The notes under the pieces were generated by a model that did no database searches, was not told where the DNA came from, and saw only the letters and a program-made list of their open reading frames with translations. A stretch of DNA of 8,977 nucleotides from a virus (lineage: Duplodnaviria > Heunggongvirae > Uroviricota > Caudoviricetes). The stretch lies in the IMG/VR virus record IMGVR_UViG_2547132488_000020, one strand, 5' to 3'. Position numbers and translations under genes: made by a program. Numbering within the stretch: the first letter of the stretch is position 1; each line of letters opens with the position of its first letter. This document shows, piece by piece, positions 17 through 8,977 of the stretch.

Positions 17-62
17 GATTACGCCGGATTATGCCGGGTTATTTGCAAGTATTCAGGGTTAT
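17..62 (+). promoter_or_regulatory. Phased 10-bp direct-repeat element, copy A, upstream of the structural operon
   Basis: Hexamers GATTAC (17-22), GATTAT (27-32), GGTTAT (37-42), weaker AAGTAT (47-52) and GGTTAT (57-62) recur at exactly 10-bp spacing. Positions 17-42 match 4897-4922 at 23 of 26 bases. Role as a protein-binding site is inferred. Confidence 0.4.
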
Positions 63-2528: not shown

Positions 2529-4820
2529 ATGGCCAATAAGAAGTTGAACGCCACAATCACCATCGGGGGTGCCGTTTCCGGCAGCCTCCGCGGTGCTTTT
2601 GGTACGGTGGAGAAATCCACCATCAAGATTGGCGCAGCGATTAAGCACATGTCGCGCGAACAGCGCCAGCTTAACGACGCTATGAAGCGTTATGGGCAAA
2701 ACTCCACGATGGTTGACCGCCTGCGCGGTCGTTACGAAAACATCGTAGGCCAGGTGGAACGCCTGCGGGCTGCGCAAGAGCGTTTAAACAGAGTGCAACG
2801 CGCCAGCACGGAAAACCTGGCCAAGCAGGCACAGCTACGCGGGCAGATTATCGATACCGTTATGGCTGGTGCTGCCGTTGCCGCACCTATCAAGATTGCC
2901 GCAGATCGTGAACAGCACGCCATTGGCATTGCCAAACAACTGGACGGCGCACGCGATGCAGCGGGCAACCTGACGGCGAAGTTTTGGGAAATGCGCAAGG
3001 CCGTTGCTGACCTTGGGCACGAAATTCCACTGGCCACAAACGACCTGTTTGACATGGCCACAGCAGGGCTGCGCATGGGCGTAGCTGGCGACCAAATCCT
3101 GGGGTTCACCCGGAACGTGGCCAAACTGGCCAGCGCCTTGGAACTGAACCCGGAAGAAGTCGCAGACAATATGGGCAAAATCCAGAATGTTTATCGACTT
3201 ACTCAAGCTGAGCTTGTGCGCCTTGGTGATGCTATTAATTACCTGGACGACCAAAACACCGTTAAAGGCGGTGAGCTTATCGACTTCCTACAGCGTGTTG
3301 GTGGTTCCGCCTCCCTCGCCAAACTCACTGCCAACGATATGGCAGCAATCGGCACCACGCTGATTTCTATGGGTGAAAGCGCAGACACTGCCGCAACGTC
3401 AGTGAAGGCGCTTGTTTCCAAGATGACGCTGGGCAGCAAATCCACGAAATCTGCGCGCGAAGCGTTCAAGGAATTGGGTTATTCCGCGCAGGAAGTGGCG
3501 AAATCCATGCAACTGGATAGCGTCAAGACCATCGAAAACTTTATGAAGACGGTCAACAAGCTGCCAGATTACAAGAAATCCGGCATCCTGGTGTCCATCT
3601 TCGGGCAGGAACACGTTGGTTCTATCTCCAAACTGGCAGCCAACATGGACAAGTTTGGCGAGGCGTTGCACCAGGCTAATGGCGAAATGTCCAAAGGCAG
3701 TGTGCAGAAGGAATTCCAGAACACCGTCAACACCACCAACGCGCAGATGGTTATCCTGCGTAACCGCACCGCTGACGTGGCTGACAATATCGGCACCGTC
3801 CTGCTGCCGACCGTCAACGACGCAGCCAAAGGCATTGGCCGCATCACAACTGTTGTGGCGAACTTCGCGGCGGAACACCCCGGCCTGACCAAAGCCGTGG
3901 TGGGCACAGCGATGGCGCTCACGTCCCTGCGTGTGGCCACCCTGGCGGCGCAGTTCGGCTTCACGTTCCTGAAAGGTGGCGTGTTGCAGATGTCCAGCCT
4001 GTTTGCCCGCATGAACGCATCTGCCGTTCTGGCCAGCACCCGTGGCCTGCCTGCGGTGGCTACCGGCATTCGTGCCGTTGGTGCGGCGTTCATATCCACT
4101 GGCGTGGGTGCTGCCGTAGCTGGCCTGGCGCTGGCAGGTTATCAGATTTACCGCCATTGGGCCGGTGTGAAGGCTTTTTTTGGTGGCGTTGGTGAAGGCA
4201 TCAAATCCGGGTTGGAACCGCTTAGCGATGCCCTGCATCGCCTGTATGAGCGCATGGGGCCATTGAAGCCCGTCATTGATGGCGTGGGCGCTGCGGTTAA
4301 GACGGTTTTCAACTGGTTCACGTCACTGACCGAACCGGTCAAATACAGCGGCGAGGAACTGGATAAGGCCGGTAAAATGGGGATGACGTTCGGTAAGACC
4401 CTGGCGGCTGGCATCGAGCTTGTGACCGCACCGATCACGTTCCTGATTGATAAGATTCTGTGGGTGTCTGACAACATCGGCAACCTGACCAACAAGGCAC
4501 TGGAGTTTAAAAACGCCGTGTCTGATGTTGCTGGTGGTGCGTGGCAGAAAACCAAAGATTTCTTTAGCAATCCGTTCGGTGAAGACGAAAGCAGCCAGCC
4601 AGCAGCGACCGCCGCCCCTGGTGCGTCCTTGCCTTCACCGGCACTGGCTAACCGCACCGGCAACACAACGGTGAACACGAACGACCAGTACACCATCAAC
4701 GTGAAGGCCGAGCCTGGCATGAATGAAGATGCGCTGGCAAATAAGGTGGCGCAGAAGCTGAAACAGCAGCAAGGAATCCGAAATCGTAGCATGATGAATG
4801 ACGGATTAGCAGCACCGTAA
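2529..4820 (+). CDS. Phage tail tape-measure protein-like (763 aa)
   Basis: Uninterrupted 2292-nt ORF. N-terminal Arg/Gln/Glu/Ala-rich helical region; a core (approx. aa 150-330) reading ATNDLFDMATAGLRMGVAGDQILGFTRNVAKLASALELNPEEVADNMGKI ... IGTTLISMGESADTAATSVKALVSKMTLGS that matches my memory of the TP901-family tape-measure core; a long Gly/Ala-rich hydrophobic segment (approx. aa 450-560). Size and layout are typical of TMPs. Not verified by search. Confidence 0.75.
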   Translation: MANKKLNATITIGGAVSGSLRGAFGTVEKSTIKIGAAIKHMSREQRQLNDAMKRYGQNSTMVDRLRGRYENIVGQVERLRAAQERLNRVQRASTENLAKQAQLRGQIIDTVMAGAAVAAPIKIAADREQHAIGIAKQLDGARDAAGNLTAKFWEMRKAVADLGHEIPLATNDLFDMATAGLRMGVAGDQILGFTRNVAKLASALELNPEEVADNMGKIQNVYRLTQAELVRLGDAINYLDDQNTVKGGELIDFLQRVGGSASLAKLTANDMAAIGTTLISMGESADTAATSVKALVSKMTLGSKSTKSAREAFKELGYSAQEVAKSMQLDSVKTIENFMKTVNKLPDYKKSGILVSIFGQEHVGSISKLAANMDKFGEALHQANGEMSKGSVQKEFQNTVNTTNAQMVILRNRTADVADNIGTVLLPTVNDAAKGIGRITTVVANFAAEHPGLTKAVVGTAMALTSLRVATLAAQFGFTFLKGGVLQMSSLFARMNASAVLASTRGLPAVATGIRAVGAAFISTGVGAAVAGLALAGYQIYRHWAGVKAFFGGVGEGIKSGLEPLSDALHRLYERMGPLKPVIDGVGAAVKTVFNWFTSLTEPVKYSGEELDKAGKMGMTFGKTLAAGIELVTAPITFLIDKILWVSDNIGNLTNKALEFKNAVSDVAGGAWQKTKDFFSNPFGEDESSQPAATAAPGASLPSPALANRTGNTTVNTNDQYTINVKAEPGMNEDALANKVAQKLKQQQGIRNRSMMNDGLAAP

Positions 4821-4896: not shown

Positions 4897-4922
4897 GATT
4901 ATGCCGGATTATGTGGGGTTAT
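4897..4922 (+). promoter_or_regulatory. Phased 10-bp direct-repeat element, copy B, upstream of the replication operon
   Basis: GATTATGCCGGATTATGTGGGGTTAT; 23 of 26 bases identical to 17-42, with GATTAT, GATTAT, GGTTAT at 10-bp phasing. Confidence 0.4.
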
Positions 4923-4992
4923 GAGTGACATTTACCTTTTTAAATGCCTGAAATTATTTATGAATTTTCGGCCTATATTTTGGCAAAATAGC

Positions 4993-5020
4993 TTGCAGAA
5001 ACCGGATTGCAGGGTATCAT
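4993..5020 (+). promoter_or_regulatory. Candidate sigma70-type promoter for the replication operon
   Basis: TTGCAG (4993-4998), 16-bp spacer, TATCAT (5015-5020); predicted start near 5027. Sequence match only. Confidence 0.35.
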
Positions 5021-5025
5021 TTGAA

Positions 5026-5050
5026 TTGTGGCGCTTGCACACCGCCACAA
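5026..5050. promoter_or_regulatory. Perfect inverted repeat TTGTGGCG-N9-CGCCACAA (operator-like or RNA hairpin)
   Basis: 8-bp perfect arms 5026-5033 and 5043-5050 with a 9-bp spacer, sitting at the predicted start site of the 4993-5020 promoter. Confidence 0.35.
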
Positions 5051-5051
5051 A

Positions 5052-5120
5052 AAGGAAAACCCCCGGACTGCGCGAACAATCCAGGGGGCTTAATGAAAGT
5101 CTAGGTTAGCGGCCTGACTA
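5052..5120 (-). ncRNA. Candidate small antisense RNA (about 65 nt) with its own promoter and intrinsic terminator
   Basis: On the minus strand: TTGCTA (plus 5150-5155), 17-bp spacer, TAGTAT (plus 5127-5132); no ATG in the transcribed stretch; GC-rich hairpin (plus 5060-5066 pairing with 5081-5088, one bulge) followed on the minus strand by UUUUCCUUUUU (plus 5049-5059). Ends are approximate. Confidence 0.3.
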
Positions 5121-5221
5121 GGAAAAATACTAGCAAAGACCTTTACCTTTAGCAAGTTAAACCCCCCTTCATTGAGCCACCGATTTTAGCGCAGCCTCAA
5201 CGAAATATTGAGGAATGCGAA

Positions 5222-5497
5222 ATGAAATTGCACGACCTGGCTGACGCCATCCTGAAAACCAGAACCGTTGAAACTCGCTGTGATGCTGCGTTCAAATTCG
5301 CTGACGCTATGCTGCGCAACGGTTCAAGCATCACCGACACAGCGGAAGCAACCTACCGCATTGTAATGCGCGGGAACAAAGCCTACCGCCTGAACAAAGA
5401 TGACGCCTGGCGCATCACTGCGCACGCCTACGCTGAACAACTGGCGGAACGCGAAGTGGCCACCGTCCTGGCGCAGATTGCCGGGGGTGCGAAATGA
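5222..5497 (+). CDS. Small hypothetical protein, first gene of the replication operon (91 aa)
   Basis: ATG 5222 with GAGGA SD (5210-5214) at 7-nt spacing; stop overlaps the next start as ATGA. Shares the motif [YF]x[LF]N[KR]xDAW and an AGGA[KA] C-terminus with the next ORF. Confidence 0.6.
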   Translation: MKLHDLADAILKTRTVETRCDAAFKFADAMLRNGSSITDTAEATYRIVMRGNKAYRLNKDDAWRITAHAYAEQLAEREVATVLAQIAGGAK

Positions 5498-5727
5498 GCA
5501 TCATCACCCTGCATCGCCTTATGCGCGAACCTGCTACCAGCCAGACGCACGCACAGTGCGTGGCCATCATGCAGGAACTGATTAAGCAGGCCATCCAGTC
5601 TGGCCGCCCGCTGCAATATTCCATCTACCTGGGGCACCTGGCAGAGCACACCCGCTTCCCGTTCAACCGCGTGGACGCCTGGCAAATGGCGCTGGATATG
5701 CAGCGCAAGGCAGGGGGTGCGGCATGA
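5494..5727 (+). CDS. Small hypothetical protein resembling the preceding ORF (77 aa)
   Basis: Start overlaps the upstream stop (ATGA at 5494-5497) and its stop overlaps the primase start (ATGA at 5724-5727). GGGGGTG SD-like sequence sits inside the upstream C-terminus. Confidence 0.6.
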   Translation: MSIITLHRLMREPATSQTHAQCVAIMQELIKQAIQSGRPLQYSIYLGHLAEHTRFPFNRVDAWQMALDMQRKAGGAA

Positions 5728-8012
5728 GTCTGGCACACGAAAAGTACGCCTGGACTGAACAGGACGCAGCCGAGGCGTTGACATTTATTGACCCTGATTG
5801 CGACCACGAAACCTGGACCCGCCTGGCGTTTGCGGTGAAGGCTGAATTTGGTGACGCTGGATTTGATGTCTGGAACGATTGGAGCAAACAGGGCCAGAAG
5901 TACGACAGCAAAGAAGCACGCCAGAAGTGGAAAAGCGCCAAGCGGCACGGCGGAGTAACCATCGGCACGCTGATTGACCTTTCCATGCAGAACGGCTGGA
6001 AGCCGGGCACCAGGAAAGAGCTTTCAATAGACGAGATTCAGGCTCGCGCCGCGAAGCGTGAGGCCGAAGCTAAAGCCGAGGCAGAGCGCAAGCGCCACGA
6101 CCAGGCAGCAGCGGCAGCCCGCGCCCTGGAAATATGGGAAGCATCGGAACCGCTGGAAGGTAACGAACACCCGTATTTGCAGCGCAAAGGTGTGCTGTCT
6201 TTCGGCCTGAACGTTGGCCGCTGGAAGGGATACGAAAATGCACTGCTGGTGCCAATCCGCAACGCTGATGGTTCCCTAACCAGCTTGCAGGCAATCTTCC
6301 CGAACACCAACACTGACCTGGGCCGTGACCGTGACTACCTGAAAGACGGCCAGAAGCACGGTTGTTTCCACCTGATTGGCGGTAAGCCTGTTGGCGAAAA
6401 GCCGGTGATTGTGGTTTGCGAGGGTTACGCCACTGGTGCCAGCATCCACCAGGCAACAGGCCATTACGTGGCCGTGGCTTTCGACAGGAGCAACCTTAAA
6501 GCTGTGGCGCAGGCCATGCGCAAGATGGTTGGCCGCGCCACAATAATTGTGGCCGCTGATAACGACCAGTGGGAGAAGGGCAACCCCGGAAAAACCGATG
6601 CAGGTAAGGCAGCGCAGGCGGTTGGCGGCCTGGTGGCTGTGCCTGAATTCGATGACCTGACCACGAAGCCGACCGACTTCAACGACCTGCATAAATTGCA
6701 GGGAATTGATGCCGTGCGCAGCCAGGTGCAGGCTGTTATTCCAGCACCGGAGGAAAAGCGGTTCCTGCCACTGGATTCTAATGTGGTGCCGTTTGACTTC
6801 CCCTACACGTCAGACAGGATGCAGCCGCTTAACAACTGGGAAAACCTTGATTGGCTGTTAAGTCAGTACGGCATTACCGCTCGTTACAACGAGATCAGCA
6901 AGGAAGTTGAAATCAACGTGCCTGGTAAAAGCTATGGCGGTGACGGTGATGACGATAGCGCGCTGATTGAAGTGACCAGCCTGTGCGCCCGTAACCGGAT
7001 GCCAAAAGCTGACGTGGCTGACTACATCAAACTGATTGGCAAAGAGAACCGTTACAACCCGGTCAAAGACTTCATTCTGTCCAGGCCGTGGGATGGTTGC
7101 AGCCGGTTTGCTGACCTGTTAGCCACCATTGAAACGCCAGCAGATTACAGCCGTGACCTGATGGCGCTACTGATGAAACGCTGGCTGGTGTCGGCAGTGG
7201 CGGCGACATTTGAGGAACGCGGGTTCTGGTCCAAAGGCATCCTGGTGTTCCAGGGGGAGCAATCCCTTGGGAAAACGTCATGGATTAAGGCGCTGCTGCC
7301 GGAGGAAGAACAGGAAAAGCTATTGCTGGTTGGTGCTGCGATGGACCCTAGCAACAAAGACAGCGTATCGCAGGCAATTGGCCGCTGGATTGTGGAGCTT
7401 GGCGAACTGGACACCACATTCCGCAAGTCTGACATATCGGACCTGAAAAACTTCATCAGCCGCCCACATGACGTGCTGCGCAAGCCGTATGATCGCCGTG
7501 AATCGAAGTATAAGCGCAGGACTGTGTTCTTCGCATCAGTGAACCCGAAACACTTCCTGCATGACGAAACCGGCAACGTGCGTTTCTGGACCATTCCGGT
7601 GACCGGGCTGAACTATAATCACGGCATCGACGTGCAGCAGTTATGGGCCGAAGTGCATCACTGGTACACGAAAGGCGAACGCTGGTGGCTGGAACGCGAG
7701 GAAGAACAGCGCCTGGAAGCGGTGAACGCTGACCACGCGCAGGTTGACCCGCTCGAGGAAATGATTTTAGCCCGCTTCCGCTGGGATGAAACCCGCATGG
7801 AGGTTTACACCGAAATGTCAGCCGCAGAAGTGCTGATAGCGATTGGCTACGACAAGCCAACCAAATCGCAGGCCACATCATGCGGCAACATCCTGCGCAA
7901 GCTGACTGGCAAGGAGCCGCGCAGAACAGCCAAAGGGCGGTTCTACCCGATACCGCCAAAAGAATTACCAAAGCCACAAAGCTATTACGACGAAACCCAA
8001 GGCCCATTTTGA
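5724..8012 (+). CDS. Replicative primase-helicase, P4 alpha-type (Toprim primase plus P-loop NTPase; 762 aa)
   Basis: Toprim motifs VVCEGYATG (Glu233, nt 6417-6425) and AADNDQW (Asp279/Asp281, nt 6558-6566); Walker A GEQSLGKTS (aa 511-519, nt 7254-7280); Walker B-like IVELGELD; Trp-rich N-terminal domain ending GVTIGTLIDL. Architecture matches the phage/plasmid primase P4 family from memory. Confidence 0.9.
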   Translation: MSLAHEKYAWTEQDAAEALTFIDPDCDHETWTRLAFAVKAEFGDAGFDVWNDWSKQGQKYDSKEARQKWKSAKRHGGVTIGTLIDLSMQNGWKPGTRKELSIDEIQARAAKREAEAKAEAERKRHDQAAAAARALEIWEASEPLEGNEHPYLQRKGVLSFGLNVGRWKGYENALLVPIRNADGSLTSLQAIFPNTNTDLGRDRDYLKDGQKHGCFHLIGGKPVGEKPVIVVCEGYATGASIHQATGHYVAVAFDRSNLKAVAQAMRKMVGRATIIVAADNDQWEKGNPGKTDAGKAAQAVGGLVAVPEFDDLTTKPTDFNDLHKLQGIDAVRSQVQAVIPAPEEKRFLPLDSNVVPFDFPYTSDRMQPLNNWENLDWLLSQYGITARYNEISKEVEINVPGKSYGGDGDDDSALIEVTSLCARNRMPKADVADYIKLIGKENRYNPVKDFILSRPWDGCSRFADLLATIETPADYSRDLMALLMKRWLVSAVAATFEERGFWSKGILVFQGEQSLGKTSWIKALLPEEEQEKLLLVGAAMDPSNKDSVSQAIGRWIVELGELDTTFRKSDISDLKNFISRPHDVLRKPYDRRESKYKRRTVFFASVNPKHFLHDETGNVRFWTIPVTGLNYNHGIDVQQLWAEVHHWYTKGERWWLEREEEQRLEAVNADHAQVDPLEEMILARFRWDETRMEVYTEMSAAEVLIAIGYDKPTKSQATSCGNILRKLTGKEPRRTAKGRFYPIPPKELPKPQSYYDETQGPF

Positions 8013-8022
8013 GGAATAAATC

Positions 8023-8250
8023 ATGAGTTATCGCGCGATCATCAGTACATTTGACCCTGAAAACGCATCAACTGTTAACACTGAATTATTCCAGACCTTC
8101 GCAACCGCACCAGAAGCGGAAGCACATGGACGGAAATCACTTGCAGAGATTCAGCAGGAATTCTTCCAGATGGGTTATGCGTTCATCGTCAGCTACTTCA
8201 TCGTTGAAGTACCAGCGGCGGAAATCATCCAGTTTATTGCCCGCACGTAA
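8023..8250 (+). CDS. Hypothetical small protein (75 aa) at the end of the replication operon
   Basis: ATG 8023 with GAGGA SD 7 nt upstream, 10 nt after the primase stop; followed by a terminator. No motif recognised. Confidence 0.55.
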   Translation: MSYRAIISTFDPENASTVNTELFQTFATAPEAEAHGRKSLAEIQQEFFQMGYAFIVSYFIVEVPAAEIIQFIART

Positions 8251-8273
8251 CATCACAACAATTGTTGTTCACC

Positions 8274-8300
8274 GCCCTGGCACCTGCCGGGGCTTTTTTA
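8274..8300 (+). terminator. Intrinsic terminator closing the replication operon
   Basis: Stem 8274-8281 pairing with 8286-8293 (8 bp including one GU), 4-nt loop, then T6 (8294-8299). Confidence 0.6.
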
Positions 8301-8311
8301 TTGTCTGGCTG

Positions 8312-8572
8312 TGACACCTAGGTGTCATCCTGTCTTAAGGTGTCACAGTCGTAAGTGTCTGTTTTTGCTTATTAATGACACCTATGACACCTATGACACC
8401 TATTTTGAAAGATTTATTAGACCGTAAAAAACCGCCGCGAAATAACGGTTACCCTTTTTTTGAAAACAGGTGTCAAGGTGTCACTACCAACCCATGCAAT
8501 CAGCATAAATCGCATATGAATCATGCACTTATGTGTGTGACACCTATGGTGACACCTCAACCCAAGGTGTCA
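8312..8572. repeat. Iteron array: 11 copies of heptamer TGACACC/GGTGTCA flanking an AT-rich stretch; putative replication origin
   Basis: Forward copies at 8312, 8376, 8385, 8394, 8538, 8550; reverse copies at 8321, 8339, 8469, 8477, 8566. Includes a perfect 16-bp palindrome (8312-8327) and three tandem TGACACCTA 9-mers (8376-8402). AT-rich segment 8401-8466 with A6 and T7 runs. Confidence 0.7.
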
Positions 8573-8977
8573 TTCTTTCAGGGCATAGCTGCGCACCGTT
8601 ATGGCGTTATGAATCCACTCATTTGTAACAACGCTTTTTCACATCTAACCAAAGCGGCAGCCGGAATAGGTACAACATACAGAAGTATGATGTAACTACA
8701 GGAAACGAGCCTTTCAGCCTTGTTTTGCGTTCAAACAGTAGCTGCTCAGTAAACAGCCAGAACGTTGCACATATCGCAACAATAAGCCTGTGTGAATACG
8801 GGCTGAAAGCGCGCGGAATATGTCAGATTATGCGCCGTTCGCCTGCCAGCACCTTCCTGGTGCTTCTTTCTGCCTGCAAACCCACCATATTTAACATAAT
8901 GGACCTTGCGCGCACCGACTGGACGCCTGCCTGCCTCAAAAATCGAAGGTACTTCCGAGGGGGCACAGCCTGCGGGG

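What the first reader, a model, noticed from the sequence alone, without database searches (positions are those of the whole stretch)
4993..5050. Operator-like perfect palindrome at the predicted start site of the replication-operon promoter
TTGTGGCG-N9-CGCCACAA (8-bp perfect arms) sits exactly where the TTGCAG-16-TATCAT promoter would initiate, the classic position of a repressor operator, and may be the switch for the replication module. Alternatively it forms a stable 5' hairpin in the leader RNA.
Basis: seen in the sequence. Interest (0 to 1): 0.4.

Follow-up and report, generated by a model that had tools for sequence, protein, structure and literature searches.

The report
Leader hairpin beside an antisense RNA

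Summary
The palindrome TTGTGGCG-N9-CGCCACAA is at 5026-5050, starting 6 nt after the TTGCAG-16-TATCAT promoter-like site. Alone it is no more than chance: 2 such repeats in the window against 1.9 expected. Its position is what matters. The window is a ~9 kb circular plasmid-like element with a Jilinvirus-type primase and tape measure gene. A hairpin occupies the same spot in all four plasmid-type lineages, with one G·U change (L010) or a different sequence (L008). It is weak or absent in integrative cousins. I found no support for an operator: no recognisable DNA-binding gene in the window, no enriched half-site, no second copy, none in phage ep3. Directly next to it lies a strong minus-strand intrinsic terminator (5087-5060 plus U-tract). 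It is 4-12 kcal/mol more stable as minus-strand RNA in six lineages and lies downstream of a conserved minus-strand promoter-like site. Together these predict a ~70-nt countertranscript against the operon leader. Best reading (confidence 0.4): the palindrome is the 5'-terminal stem-loop of the leader RNA, bordering the antisense target. Operator, neutral sequence and a minus-strand role remain possible. It is an ordinary feature, and the antisense RNA is the more useful result.

The parts
4993..4998 (+). -35-like box TTGCAG of the leader promoter
   Evidence: The TTGCA core keeps its position in all 7 lineages (TTGCAG, TTGCGT, TTGCAT, TTTACA) in alignments A1 and A3. It matches only 3 of 6 consensus positions.
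5015..5020 (+). -10-like box TATCAT (16-nt spacer); predicted start about 5026-5028
   Evidence: Identical in window, L009, L010 and all near-identical plasmids. L008 has TAATCT. The start site is inferred, not mapped.
5026..5050 (+). The palindrome (HP1): arms 5026-5033 and 5043-5050, loop 5034-5042. Predicted 5'-terminal stem-loop of the leader RNA.
   Evidence: RNA fold -11.0 kcal/mol, 0.2% of shuffles as stable. Forms as an independent hairpin in full-leader MFE models of all four plasmid-type lineages, with or without the antisense target masked. Invariant in 7 window-type isolates.
5049..5059 (-). U-tract (TTTTCCTTTTT) of the antisense RNA terminator; on the plus strand, an A-rich linker after HP1
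   Evidence: It overlaps the last 2 nt of the palindrome.
5060..5087 (-). Intrinsic terminator hairpin of the predicted antisense RNA (12 pairs, 7 G-C)
   Evidence: -22.6 kcal/mol as minus-strand RNA against -14.5 as plus-strand. The same bias holds in 6 of 6 lineages, because the G·U pairs fall on the minus strand. Also detected in L008, L147 and L149.
5098..5119 (-). 5' stem-loop of the predicted antisense RNA, with 7-nt loop CCGCUAA (5112-5106); its complement is the target stem-loop in the leader
   Evidence: The loop is kept in L008 as CCGCUUA on a stem of different sequence; one search counts one stem pair with both sides changed (A-U to G-C).
5127..5155 (-). Antisense promoter-like site TTGCTA(5155-5150)-17-TAGTAT(5132-5127)
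   Evidence: Identical in L009 and L010. L008 has TTGCGG-17-TAATAT at the aligned place. It is 8 of 12, below the tool's threshold.
5050..5120 (-). Predicted ~70-nt countertranscript (antisense RNA) as a whole
   Evidence: Inference from the promoter, 5' stem-loop and terminator above. There is no minus-strand gene upstream that the terminator could serve. No Rfam family matches.
5087..5178 (+). Long-range leader helix, 5087-5097 pairing with 5168-5178. Its 5' strand lies inside the antisense target.
   Evidence: Two pairs show changes on both sides that keep pairing among window, L009 and L010.
5196..5213 (+). Hairpin CCUCAA...UUGAGG holding the Shine-Dalgarno GAGG (5210-5213) of the first ORF (ATG 5222)
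   Evidence: L008 has a different hairpin (UUACC...GGUAA) over its own GAGG. Predicted RBS accessibility falls when the antisense target is masked in 4 of 4 lineages.
5222..8012 (+). Regulated operon: 91-aa ORF, 77-aa ORF, and primase-helicase (PriCT_2, Toprim, VapE-like)

Best explanation
The palindrome is the DNA image of a stem-loop at the very 5' end of the replication-operon leader RNA. Transcription from the weak but conserved TTGCAG-16-TATCAT promoter should begin on the first bases of the 5' arm. The RNA would then start with a 6-8 bp hairpin and almost no unpaired 5' nucleotides. Such 5'-terminal base pairing is known to slow 5'-end-dependent decay by RppH and RNase E in E. coli. The hairpin folds on its own. 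It ends exactly where the target of a cis-encoded ~70-nt antisense RNA begins. That antisense RNA would run from a promoter at 5155-5127 through a 5' stem-loop to a terminator at 5087-5049, on the minus strand. The antisense RNA, not the palindrome, is the likely copy-number switch: pairing with the leader would open a conserved long-range helix and reduce access to the ribosome-binding site of the first ORF, and/or trigger cleavage. Shown here: the palindrome, its position, the conservation of a hairpin at this spot in plasmid-type relatives, and the strand bias and conservation of the adjacent terminator. Inferred: both start sites, that either RNA exists, the stabilising role, and how the antisense RNA acts.
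For: Position: the hairpin begins 6 nt after the -10 box in window, L009, L010 and L008, and 6-7 nt after it in L147 and L148. Structure kept while sequence changes: L010 carries C-to-T in the 3' arm, giving G·U in plus-strand RNA (-8.3 kcal/mol) but A·C on the minus strand (-6.8). L008 has a different imperfect inverted repeat (GCGTGGCCGG...CCGACCGC, -9.9 kcal/mol, 3% of shuffles as stable). In full-leader folds the hairpin is an autonomous 5' element in 4 of 4 lineages. Neighbouring antisense unit: the minus-strand terminator is found in window, L008, L147 and L149. It is 3.9-11.7 kcal/mol more stable on the minus strand in 6 of 6 lineages. The minus promoter-like site is conserved. The 7-nt loop is kept on a stem of different sequence in L008. 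The plus-strand leader is itself under structural selection: its z-score is -3.95 and compensatory changes occur in the long-range helix. Against a protein operator. Established knowledge: 5'-terminal stem-loops stabilise E. coli mRNAs (Emory et al. 1992, Bouvet and Belasco 1992, Arnold et al. 1998, as listed in PMC3997798).
Against: No start site is mapped, and the promoter is only 8 of 12 (6 of 12 in L008). If transcription starts upstream, or reads through from the tape measure operon, the hairpin is internal rather than terminal. The hairpin is not universal: it is weak in L147 (-4.8) and L148 (-6.1) and absent in L149. The strand bias of the hairpin itself is inconsistent: plus is favoured in L010 and L147, minus in window, L008 and L148. 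The effective sample is about 4-5 independent lineages with a single informative substitution. A 9-nt loop is larger than a pure stability element needs. Window, L009 and L010 share the sequence by descent, inside a stretch that is constrained anyway by the overlapping antisense gene.
Confidence: 0.4

Rival explanations
1. Operator: a dimeric repressor binds the dyad over +1 to +25 and blocks initiation or promoter escape. This would give dual control (repressor plus antisense RNA), as in R1 (CopB and CopA) or pMV158 (CopG and RNAII). The binder could be the first-ORF product (91 aa), another small element protein, or a host or helper-phage factor.
For: Perfect 8-bp dyad over the predicted start. 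The loop as well as the arms is unchanged in window, L009 and L010. The first ORF is the most diverged protein between window and L008 (a weak match over 25 aa only), and the hairpin sequence also differs there, as a co-evolving pair would. Precedent: the rep-operon repressor is cotranscribed with rep in R1 and pMV158 (PMC5717011).
Confidence: 0.17
2. No specific function: a lineage-specific palindrome in a short variable spacer between the promoter and the antisense terminator, preserved in close relatives by shared descent and by hitch-hiking with neighbouring constrained sequence.
For: The whole-window count equals the chance expectation, and 8% of intergenic shuffles contain such a repeat. 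The spacer between the -10 box and the A-run varies from 17 to 36 nt, with no hairpin in L149 and marginal ones in L147 and L148. Fifteen unrelated viral contigs carry the same arms by chance.
Against: Local folding is unusual for its composition in both the window type (0.2% of shuffles) and L008 (3%), at the same position, with largely different sequence. Combining my plus-strand shuffle fractions over the five lineage groups by Fisher's method gives about p=0.002 (my own arithmetic, and the lineages are not fully independent). The single substitution seen (L010) keeps pairing in plus-strand RNA.
Confidence: 0.22
3. Minus-strand role: the hairpin forms in antisense transcripts that read through the U-tract. 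It would act as a 3' protective structure or a pause that keeps antisense polymerases from running into the leader promoter.
For: It lies immediately after the antisense U-tract. As minus-strand RNA it is more stable in window (-13.9 against -11.0), L008 (-11.0 against -9.9) and L148 (-7.5 against -6.1).
Against: No U-run follows it on the minus strand, so it is not a terminator. L010 and L147 weaken it specifically on the minus strand. The upstream terminator already looks strong (12 pairs plus U-tract).
Confidence: 0.08

Closest known systems
5'-terminal stabilising stem-loops of E. coli mRNAs (ompA 5' UTR hp1, papA)
   Same: A stable hairpin predicted to start within 0-2 nt of the transcript's 5' end, with structure rather than sequence kept across lineages, in an enterobacterial host.
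   Different: The 5' end is unmapped. No half-life data exist. The hairpin is absent or weak in integrative cousins. The 9-nt loop is larger than needed.
Countertranscript control of plasmid replication genes (R1 CopA/CopT, IncB/IncI-alpha RNAI, pMV158 RNAII, pT181 RNAI)
   Same: A short antisense gene inside the leader of the replication operon. A 5' stem-loop with a 7-nt loop containing a YUNR-like CUAA. A Rho-independent terminator ending close to the mRNA start. A structured leader whose RBS hairpin could respond to pairing.
   Different: The regulated gene is a phage-type primase-helicase (PriCT_2, Toprim, VapE-like), not a classical Rep. There is no sequence or Rfam relation to any known antisense RNA. 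A related terminator hairpin also occurs in integrative cousins. The mechanism (translation block, decay or attenuation) is unresolved.
Operators overlapping +1 (lacO1) and rep-operon autorepressors (CopG of pMV158, CopB of R1)
   Same: Dyad symmetry placed over the start site of an operon encoding replication functions, with an antisense RNA acting on the same transcript.
   Different: No identifiable repressor. The half-site is neither repeated nor conserved. The 91-aa first-ORF product is all-helical with no N-terminal strand and no HTH match, unlike the ribbon-helix-helix protein CopG.
Satellite phage P4 immunity and replication control (CI RNA processed from the P_LE leader; alpha primase-helicase operon)
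   Same: A small element with a primase-helicase operon preceded by a long structured leader that carries an RNA regulator. Relatives of the element have the int, alpA, primase layout typical of P4-like satellites.
   Different: P4's CI RNA is cut from the same strand and acts in trans to cause premature termination. Here the regulator is a countertranscript with its own promoter and terminator. There is no C4/CI family hit in Rfam.

Membership tests
5'-terminal stabilising stem-loop (ompA type) | Hairpin begins within a few nucleotides of the mapped 5' end of the mRNA | tested here: inconclusive
   Only a predicted start exists. The -10 box ends 5 nt before the stem in four plasmid-type lineages. 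No transcript data are available.
5'-terminal stabilising stem-loop (ompA type) | Stable stem kept by structure, not sequence, in relatives | tested here: met
   -11.0 (window, L009), -8.3 (L010, G·U) and -9.9 kcal/mol (L008, a different sequence). It is weak or absent in the integrative cousins L147, L148 and L149.
5'-terminal stabilising stem-loop (ompA type) | Removing the stem shortens mRNA half-life in an RppH- or RNase E-dependent way | not testable with these tools
   Needs rifampicin chase or reporter experiments.
Repressor operator at the transcription start | Dyad symmetry overlapping the promoter or +1 | tested here: met
   8-bp perfect arms at predicted +1 to +25.
Repressor operator at the transcription start | A cognate sequence-specific DNA-binding protein, encoded in cis or otherwise identifiable | tested here: not met
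   [not shown]
Repressor operator at the transcription start | Half-site sequence conserved in relatives and/or repeated at co-regulated promoters | tested here: not met
   Arms differ in L008. The half-site is not enriched. There is no co-varying copy upstream of the other operon and none in phage ep3.
Cis-encoded countertranscript regulating a replication operon | Intrinsic terminator on the strand opposite the rep leader, with no upstream gene to serve | tested here: met
   12-pair stem plus TTTTCCTTTTT. Minus-strand bias in 6 of 6 lineages. All genes are on the plus strand.
Cis-encoded countertranscript regulating a replication operon | Antisense promoter inside the leader | tested here: inconclusive
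   TTGCTA-17-TAGTAT is 8 of 12 and conserved in 3 lineages. L008 has TTGCGG-17-TAATAT at the aligned place. It is below the scan threshold and no transcript data exist.
Cis-encoded countertranscript regulating a replication operon | Stem-loop with a 5-8 nt recognition loop kept across relatives | tested here: met
   The loop CCGCUAA becomes CCGCUUA in L008 on a stem of different sequence; one search counts one stem pair with both sides changed and several broken in the MAFFT alignment.
Cis-encoded countertranscript regulating a replication operon | Pairing lowers expression of the replication gene | tested here: inconclusive
   Masking the target lowers the modelled probability that the RBS is unpaired in 4 of 4 lineages, but only from 0.37-0.54 to 0.28-0.42. 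This is a model only.
Known Rfam RNA families (including C4/P4 CI antisense RNA and plasmid RNAI, CopA, ctRNA families) | Covariance-model match | tested here: not met
   No hit in the region at E<=1 in the window or in L008, L010, L147, L148 and L149.
Intrinsic terminator (for the palindrome itself) | G+C-rich hairpin followed by a U-run | tested here: not met
   It is followed by AAAAAGG on the plus strand and AUUCAAAUG on the minus strand. The scan does not list it.

The most novel reading that the evidence does not exclude
The palindrome is a true operator for a new, all-helical small autorepressor (the 91-aa first-ORF product, which diverges together with the hairpin sequence in L008). 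That would give a dual repressor plus countertranscript copy-control circuit in a previously undescribed family of plasmid-form phage satellites built from Jilinvirus primase and tape measure genes.
Probability: 0.1. Interest if true: 0.5.

Novelty: new member of a known kind. Interest (0 to 1): 0.3.

Why it matters
On its own the palindrome is a routine leader feature. Its value is as a landmark. It fixes the likely start of the replication-operon transcript and the end of an unannotated antisense RNA. Together they form a compact, testable copy-number control module in a ~9 kb element found as a plasmid in E. coli, Salmonella and Proteus. That element appears to be the plasmid form of a phage-satellite-like family carrying a Jilinvirus-type primase and tape measure gene. 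Knowing the control module would allow copy-number and incompatibility experiments on these unstudied elements. The antisense RNA would also be a new RNA family for annotation.

Tried and rejected
- **Intrinsic terminator for the palindrome:** rejected, because no U-run follows it on either strand.
- **Known RNA family:** nothing in Rfam for the window or five relatives.
- **CRP-like or LacI-like site (my own reading of the sequence):** the arm AATTGTGGCG resembles the lac half-site AATTGTGAGC, and TGTG...CACA resembles a CRP site. The spacings are wrong for both (TGTG-N7-CACA internally, and the arms 9 bp apart), and the motif is not kept in L008.
- **Sigma-54 promoter (TGGCAA-N6-TTGCA at 4982-4997):** the spacing is one base too long and the GG is lost in L008. 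This is also my own reading.
- **Iteron-type autoregulation:** the arms do not resemble the GGTGTCA iterons at 8300-8580.
- **Shared operator with the other operon:** the near-copy at 94-101 does not co-vary in L008.
- **Helper-phage operator:** none in the ep3 genome. The 15 viral-contig matches are unrelated.
- **Coding explanation:** ORF 4921-5109 (62 aa), called in Logan contigs, shows no codon-position bias and is broken in L008.
- **Widening the sample:** primase searches of viral and genome contigs found only distant phages. Three DNA-pattern probes, scanned in viral contigs and two of them also in metagenome contigs, found only L017 plus chance matches. Most primase homologs lie in ~42 kb phages that have no such leader.
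- **Alternative upstream promoter in the conserved 4927-4959 block:** its -10 candidates are not conserved.

Full report
**1. The observation**

The sequence at 4993-5050 is as described.
- TTGCAG lies at 4993-4998 and TATCAT at 5015-5020, separated by a 16-nt spacer.
- The perfect inverted repeat TTGTGGCG (5026-5033) and CGCCACAA (5043-5050) has a 9-nt spacer (I7).
- The stem begins 6 nt after the -10 box, so a normal start point falls on its first bases.

As a bare statistic the palindrome is unremarkable.
- The window has 2 perfect 8-bp inverted repeats with 3-12 nt spacers, against 1.94 in dinucleotide shuffles.
- Within the 401-bp intergenic region, 8% of shuffles contain one.

The promoter is also a weak match, 8 of 12, and the scanning tool does not report it. 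Everything therefore depends on context and comparison.

**2. What the window is**

The window is essentially a complete ~9 kb circular element.
- Near-identical (about 99%) copies of the intergenic region occur on circular plasmids of 8.9-9.3 kb in E. coli, Salmonella enterica and Proteus mirabilis; the primase is 99.9% identical in two of them.
- All genes are on the plus strand. A first operon ends with a tape measure protein (2529-4820).
- After a 401-bp gap, a second operon encodes 91-aa and 77-aa proteins and a PriCT_2, Toprim, VapE-like primase-helicase (5724-8012).
- Only the primase (60% identity) and the tape measure protein (43%) have homologs in the lytic myophage ep3, genus Jilinvirus.
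- In those phages the primase sits inside a long early operon with no dedicated leader.

Diverged members of the plasmid-type family are L008, L009 and L010.
- L008: primase 83% identical.
- L009: 91-aa ORF 75% identical.
- L010: 91-aa ORF 70% identical.

More distant cousins (L147, L148, L149, L013) are integrative, with int and alpA ahead of the same small ORF and primase. This is a P4-like satellite layout.

**3.

Immediately 3' of the palindrome, the minus strand carries a strong intrinsic terminator: a 12-pair stem at 5087-5060 followed by TTTTCCTTTTT at 5059-5049.
- The same hairpin with a U-tract is detected in L008, L147 and L149.
- In six lineages it is 3.9-11.7 kcal/mol more stable as minus-strand RNA than as plus-strand RNA, because its wobble pairs are G·U on the minus strand. 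This is the signature of an RNA transcribed from the minus strand.
- No minus-strand gene lies upstream of it.
- About 40 nt upstream of it on that strand is TTGCTA-17-TAGTAT (5155-5127). It is identical in L009 and L010, and reads TTGCGG-17-TAATAT in L008.
- Between them is a stem-loop whose 7-nt loop CCGCUAA is kept in L008 (as CCGCUUA) on a stem of different sequence. On the MAFFT alignment, one search counts one stem pair with both sides changed (A-U to G-C), one wobble change, and three pairs broken or gapped.

Together these predict a ~70-nt countertranscript (about 5120 to 5050) complementary to the operon leader. It matches no Rfam family.

The plus-strand leader is itself structured.
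- Its folding z-score is -3.95.
- A long-range helix (5087-5097 with 5168-5178) shows two compensatory double changes among close relatives.
- The Shine-Dalgarno sequence of the first ORF sits in a hairpin that is replaced by a different hairpin in L008.
- Masking the antisense target lowers modelled RBS accessibility in all four lineages, though modestly.

**4. The palindrome in this frame**

It occupies predicted positions +1 to +25 of the leader and ends where the antisense U-tract ends, so it lies outside the antisense RNA.

| Lineage | Hairpin at this position | Plus-strand RNA (kcal/mol) | Minus-strand RNA (kcal/mol) |
|---|---|---|---|
| Window, L009 and five other near-identical isolates | Invariant perfect palindrome | -11.0 (0.2% of shuffles as stable) | -13.9 |
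| L010 | One C-to-T change in the 3' arm; breaks DNA symmetry, keeps G·U on plus | -8.3 | -6.8 |
| L008 | Different imperfect inverted repeat | -9.9 | -11.0 |
| L147 | Short, weak hairpin | -4.8 | -1.4 |
| L148 | Short, weak hairpin | -6.1 | -7.5 |
| L149 | None | 0 | 0 |

These values come, and the invariance. In full-leader folds the hairpin forms on its own in all four plasmid-type lineages, whether or not the antisense target is masked. So a hairpin at the transcript start is a recurrent but not universal feature. Its sequence is free to change.

**5. Tests of the operator reading**

- No window ORF has a DNA-binding domain.
- The one helix-turn-helix gene of the family (HTH_17, in L008 and L010) is missing from the window. 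It is 88% identical between two elements whose hairpins differ.
- The half-site is not enriched (17 against 13.9 expected).
- The near-copy at 94-101, upstream of the other operon, does not co-vary in L008.
- Phage ep3 has no similar dyad, and the 15 viral contigs with the same arms are unrelated.
- The arms do not resemble the GGTGTCA iterons of the probable origin.

The only point in favour is that the first ORF and the hairpin sequence both diverge strongly between window and L008. A host factor cannot be excluded.

**6. Verdict**

- Best explanation (0.4): a 5'-terminal stem-loop of the leader RNA. By analogy with ompA-type elements (references listed in PMC3997798) it would protect the 5' end. 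It also marks the edge of the antisense target.
- Rivals: a functionless lineage-specific palindrome (0.22), an operator giving R1- or pMV158-like dual control (0.17; PMC5717011), and a role in read-through antisense transcripts (0.08).

The likelier switch of the replication module is the predicted antisense RNA. The feature is an ordinary member of known kinds. The unannotated antisense RNA and the nature of the element are the more interesting by-products.

**7. Limits**

- No transcript data are available.
- Both promoters are sub-threshold consensus matches.
- There are only four or five effectively independent lineages and a single informative substitution in the stem.

Noticed in passing
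window 8300-8580: A dense field of GGTGTCA / TGACACC(T) repeats in both orientations, just after the primase and 75-aa genes. It is probably the iteron-type origin. ORF 8375-8695 (MTPMTPMTP...) is an artefact of these repeats.
   Followed up: partly
window 17-46 (and 57-63) and 4899-4925; L008 about 4976-5030: GGRTTAT(G) repeats at 11-bp spacing lie upstream of both operons and are conserved in L008. The sub-threshold Rfam 'CRISPR-DR11' hit at 13-49 is this repeat. They are a better candidate than the palindrome for a protein-binding switch shared by the two operons.
   Followed up: partly
window 4927-4959: GACATTTACCTTTTTAAATGCCTGAAATTATTT is the most conserved non-coding block between the window and L008, about 35-70 nt upstream of the -35 box. 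Its function is unknown (UP element, IHF-type site or activator site are possibilities).
   Followed up: partly
whole window; L147, L148, L149, L013: The element is a ~9 kb plasmid whose only phage-like genes are a Jilinvirus-type primase and tape measure protein. Integrative cousins carry int and alpA instead of the plasmid leader. It looks like an undescribed satellite-like family with plasmid and integrated forms. Three literature searches found no description.
   Followed up: partly
window 4921-5109: A 62-aa ORF called by gene finders in L009 and L010 spans the promoter, the palindrome and the terminator. Its substitutions are 9/9/9 by codon position (L010), with 15 nonsynonymous against 3 synonymous, and the frame is broken in L008. 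It is not a gene.
   Followed up: yes
[not shown]
   Followed up: partly
L147 about 1690-1730, L148 about 1700-1740, L149 6841-6865: The integrative cousins have their own palindrome, TGCGTT-N7-9-AACGCA, with conserved arms and a variable spacer. It overlaps the alpA-proximal promoter-like site (TTCATA-16-TATCAT in L147).
   Followed up: no
window 8246-8299: The sub-threshold Rfam 'AgvB' hit is simply a terminator-like hairpin plus T-run after the 75-aa gene.
   Followed up: no
window versus L008 4296-4493 and L010 3004-3201: L008 and L010 carry a 65-aa HTH_17 (AlpA or excisionase-like) gene in the region between the primase module and the first operon. The window has no homolog there.
   Followed up: partly
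plasmid CP077066.1 (17,382 bp): This record holds two copies of the intergenic region, so it looks like a dimer or tandem form of the ~9 kb element.
   Followed up: no
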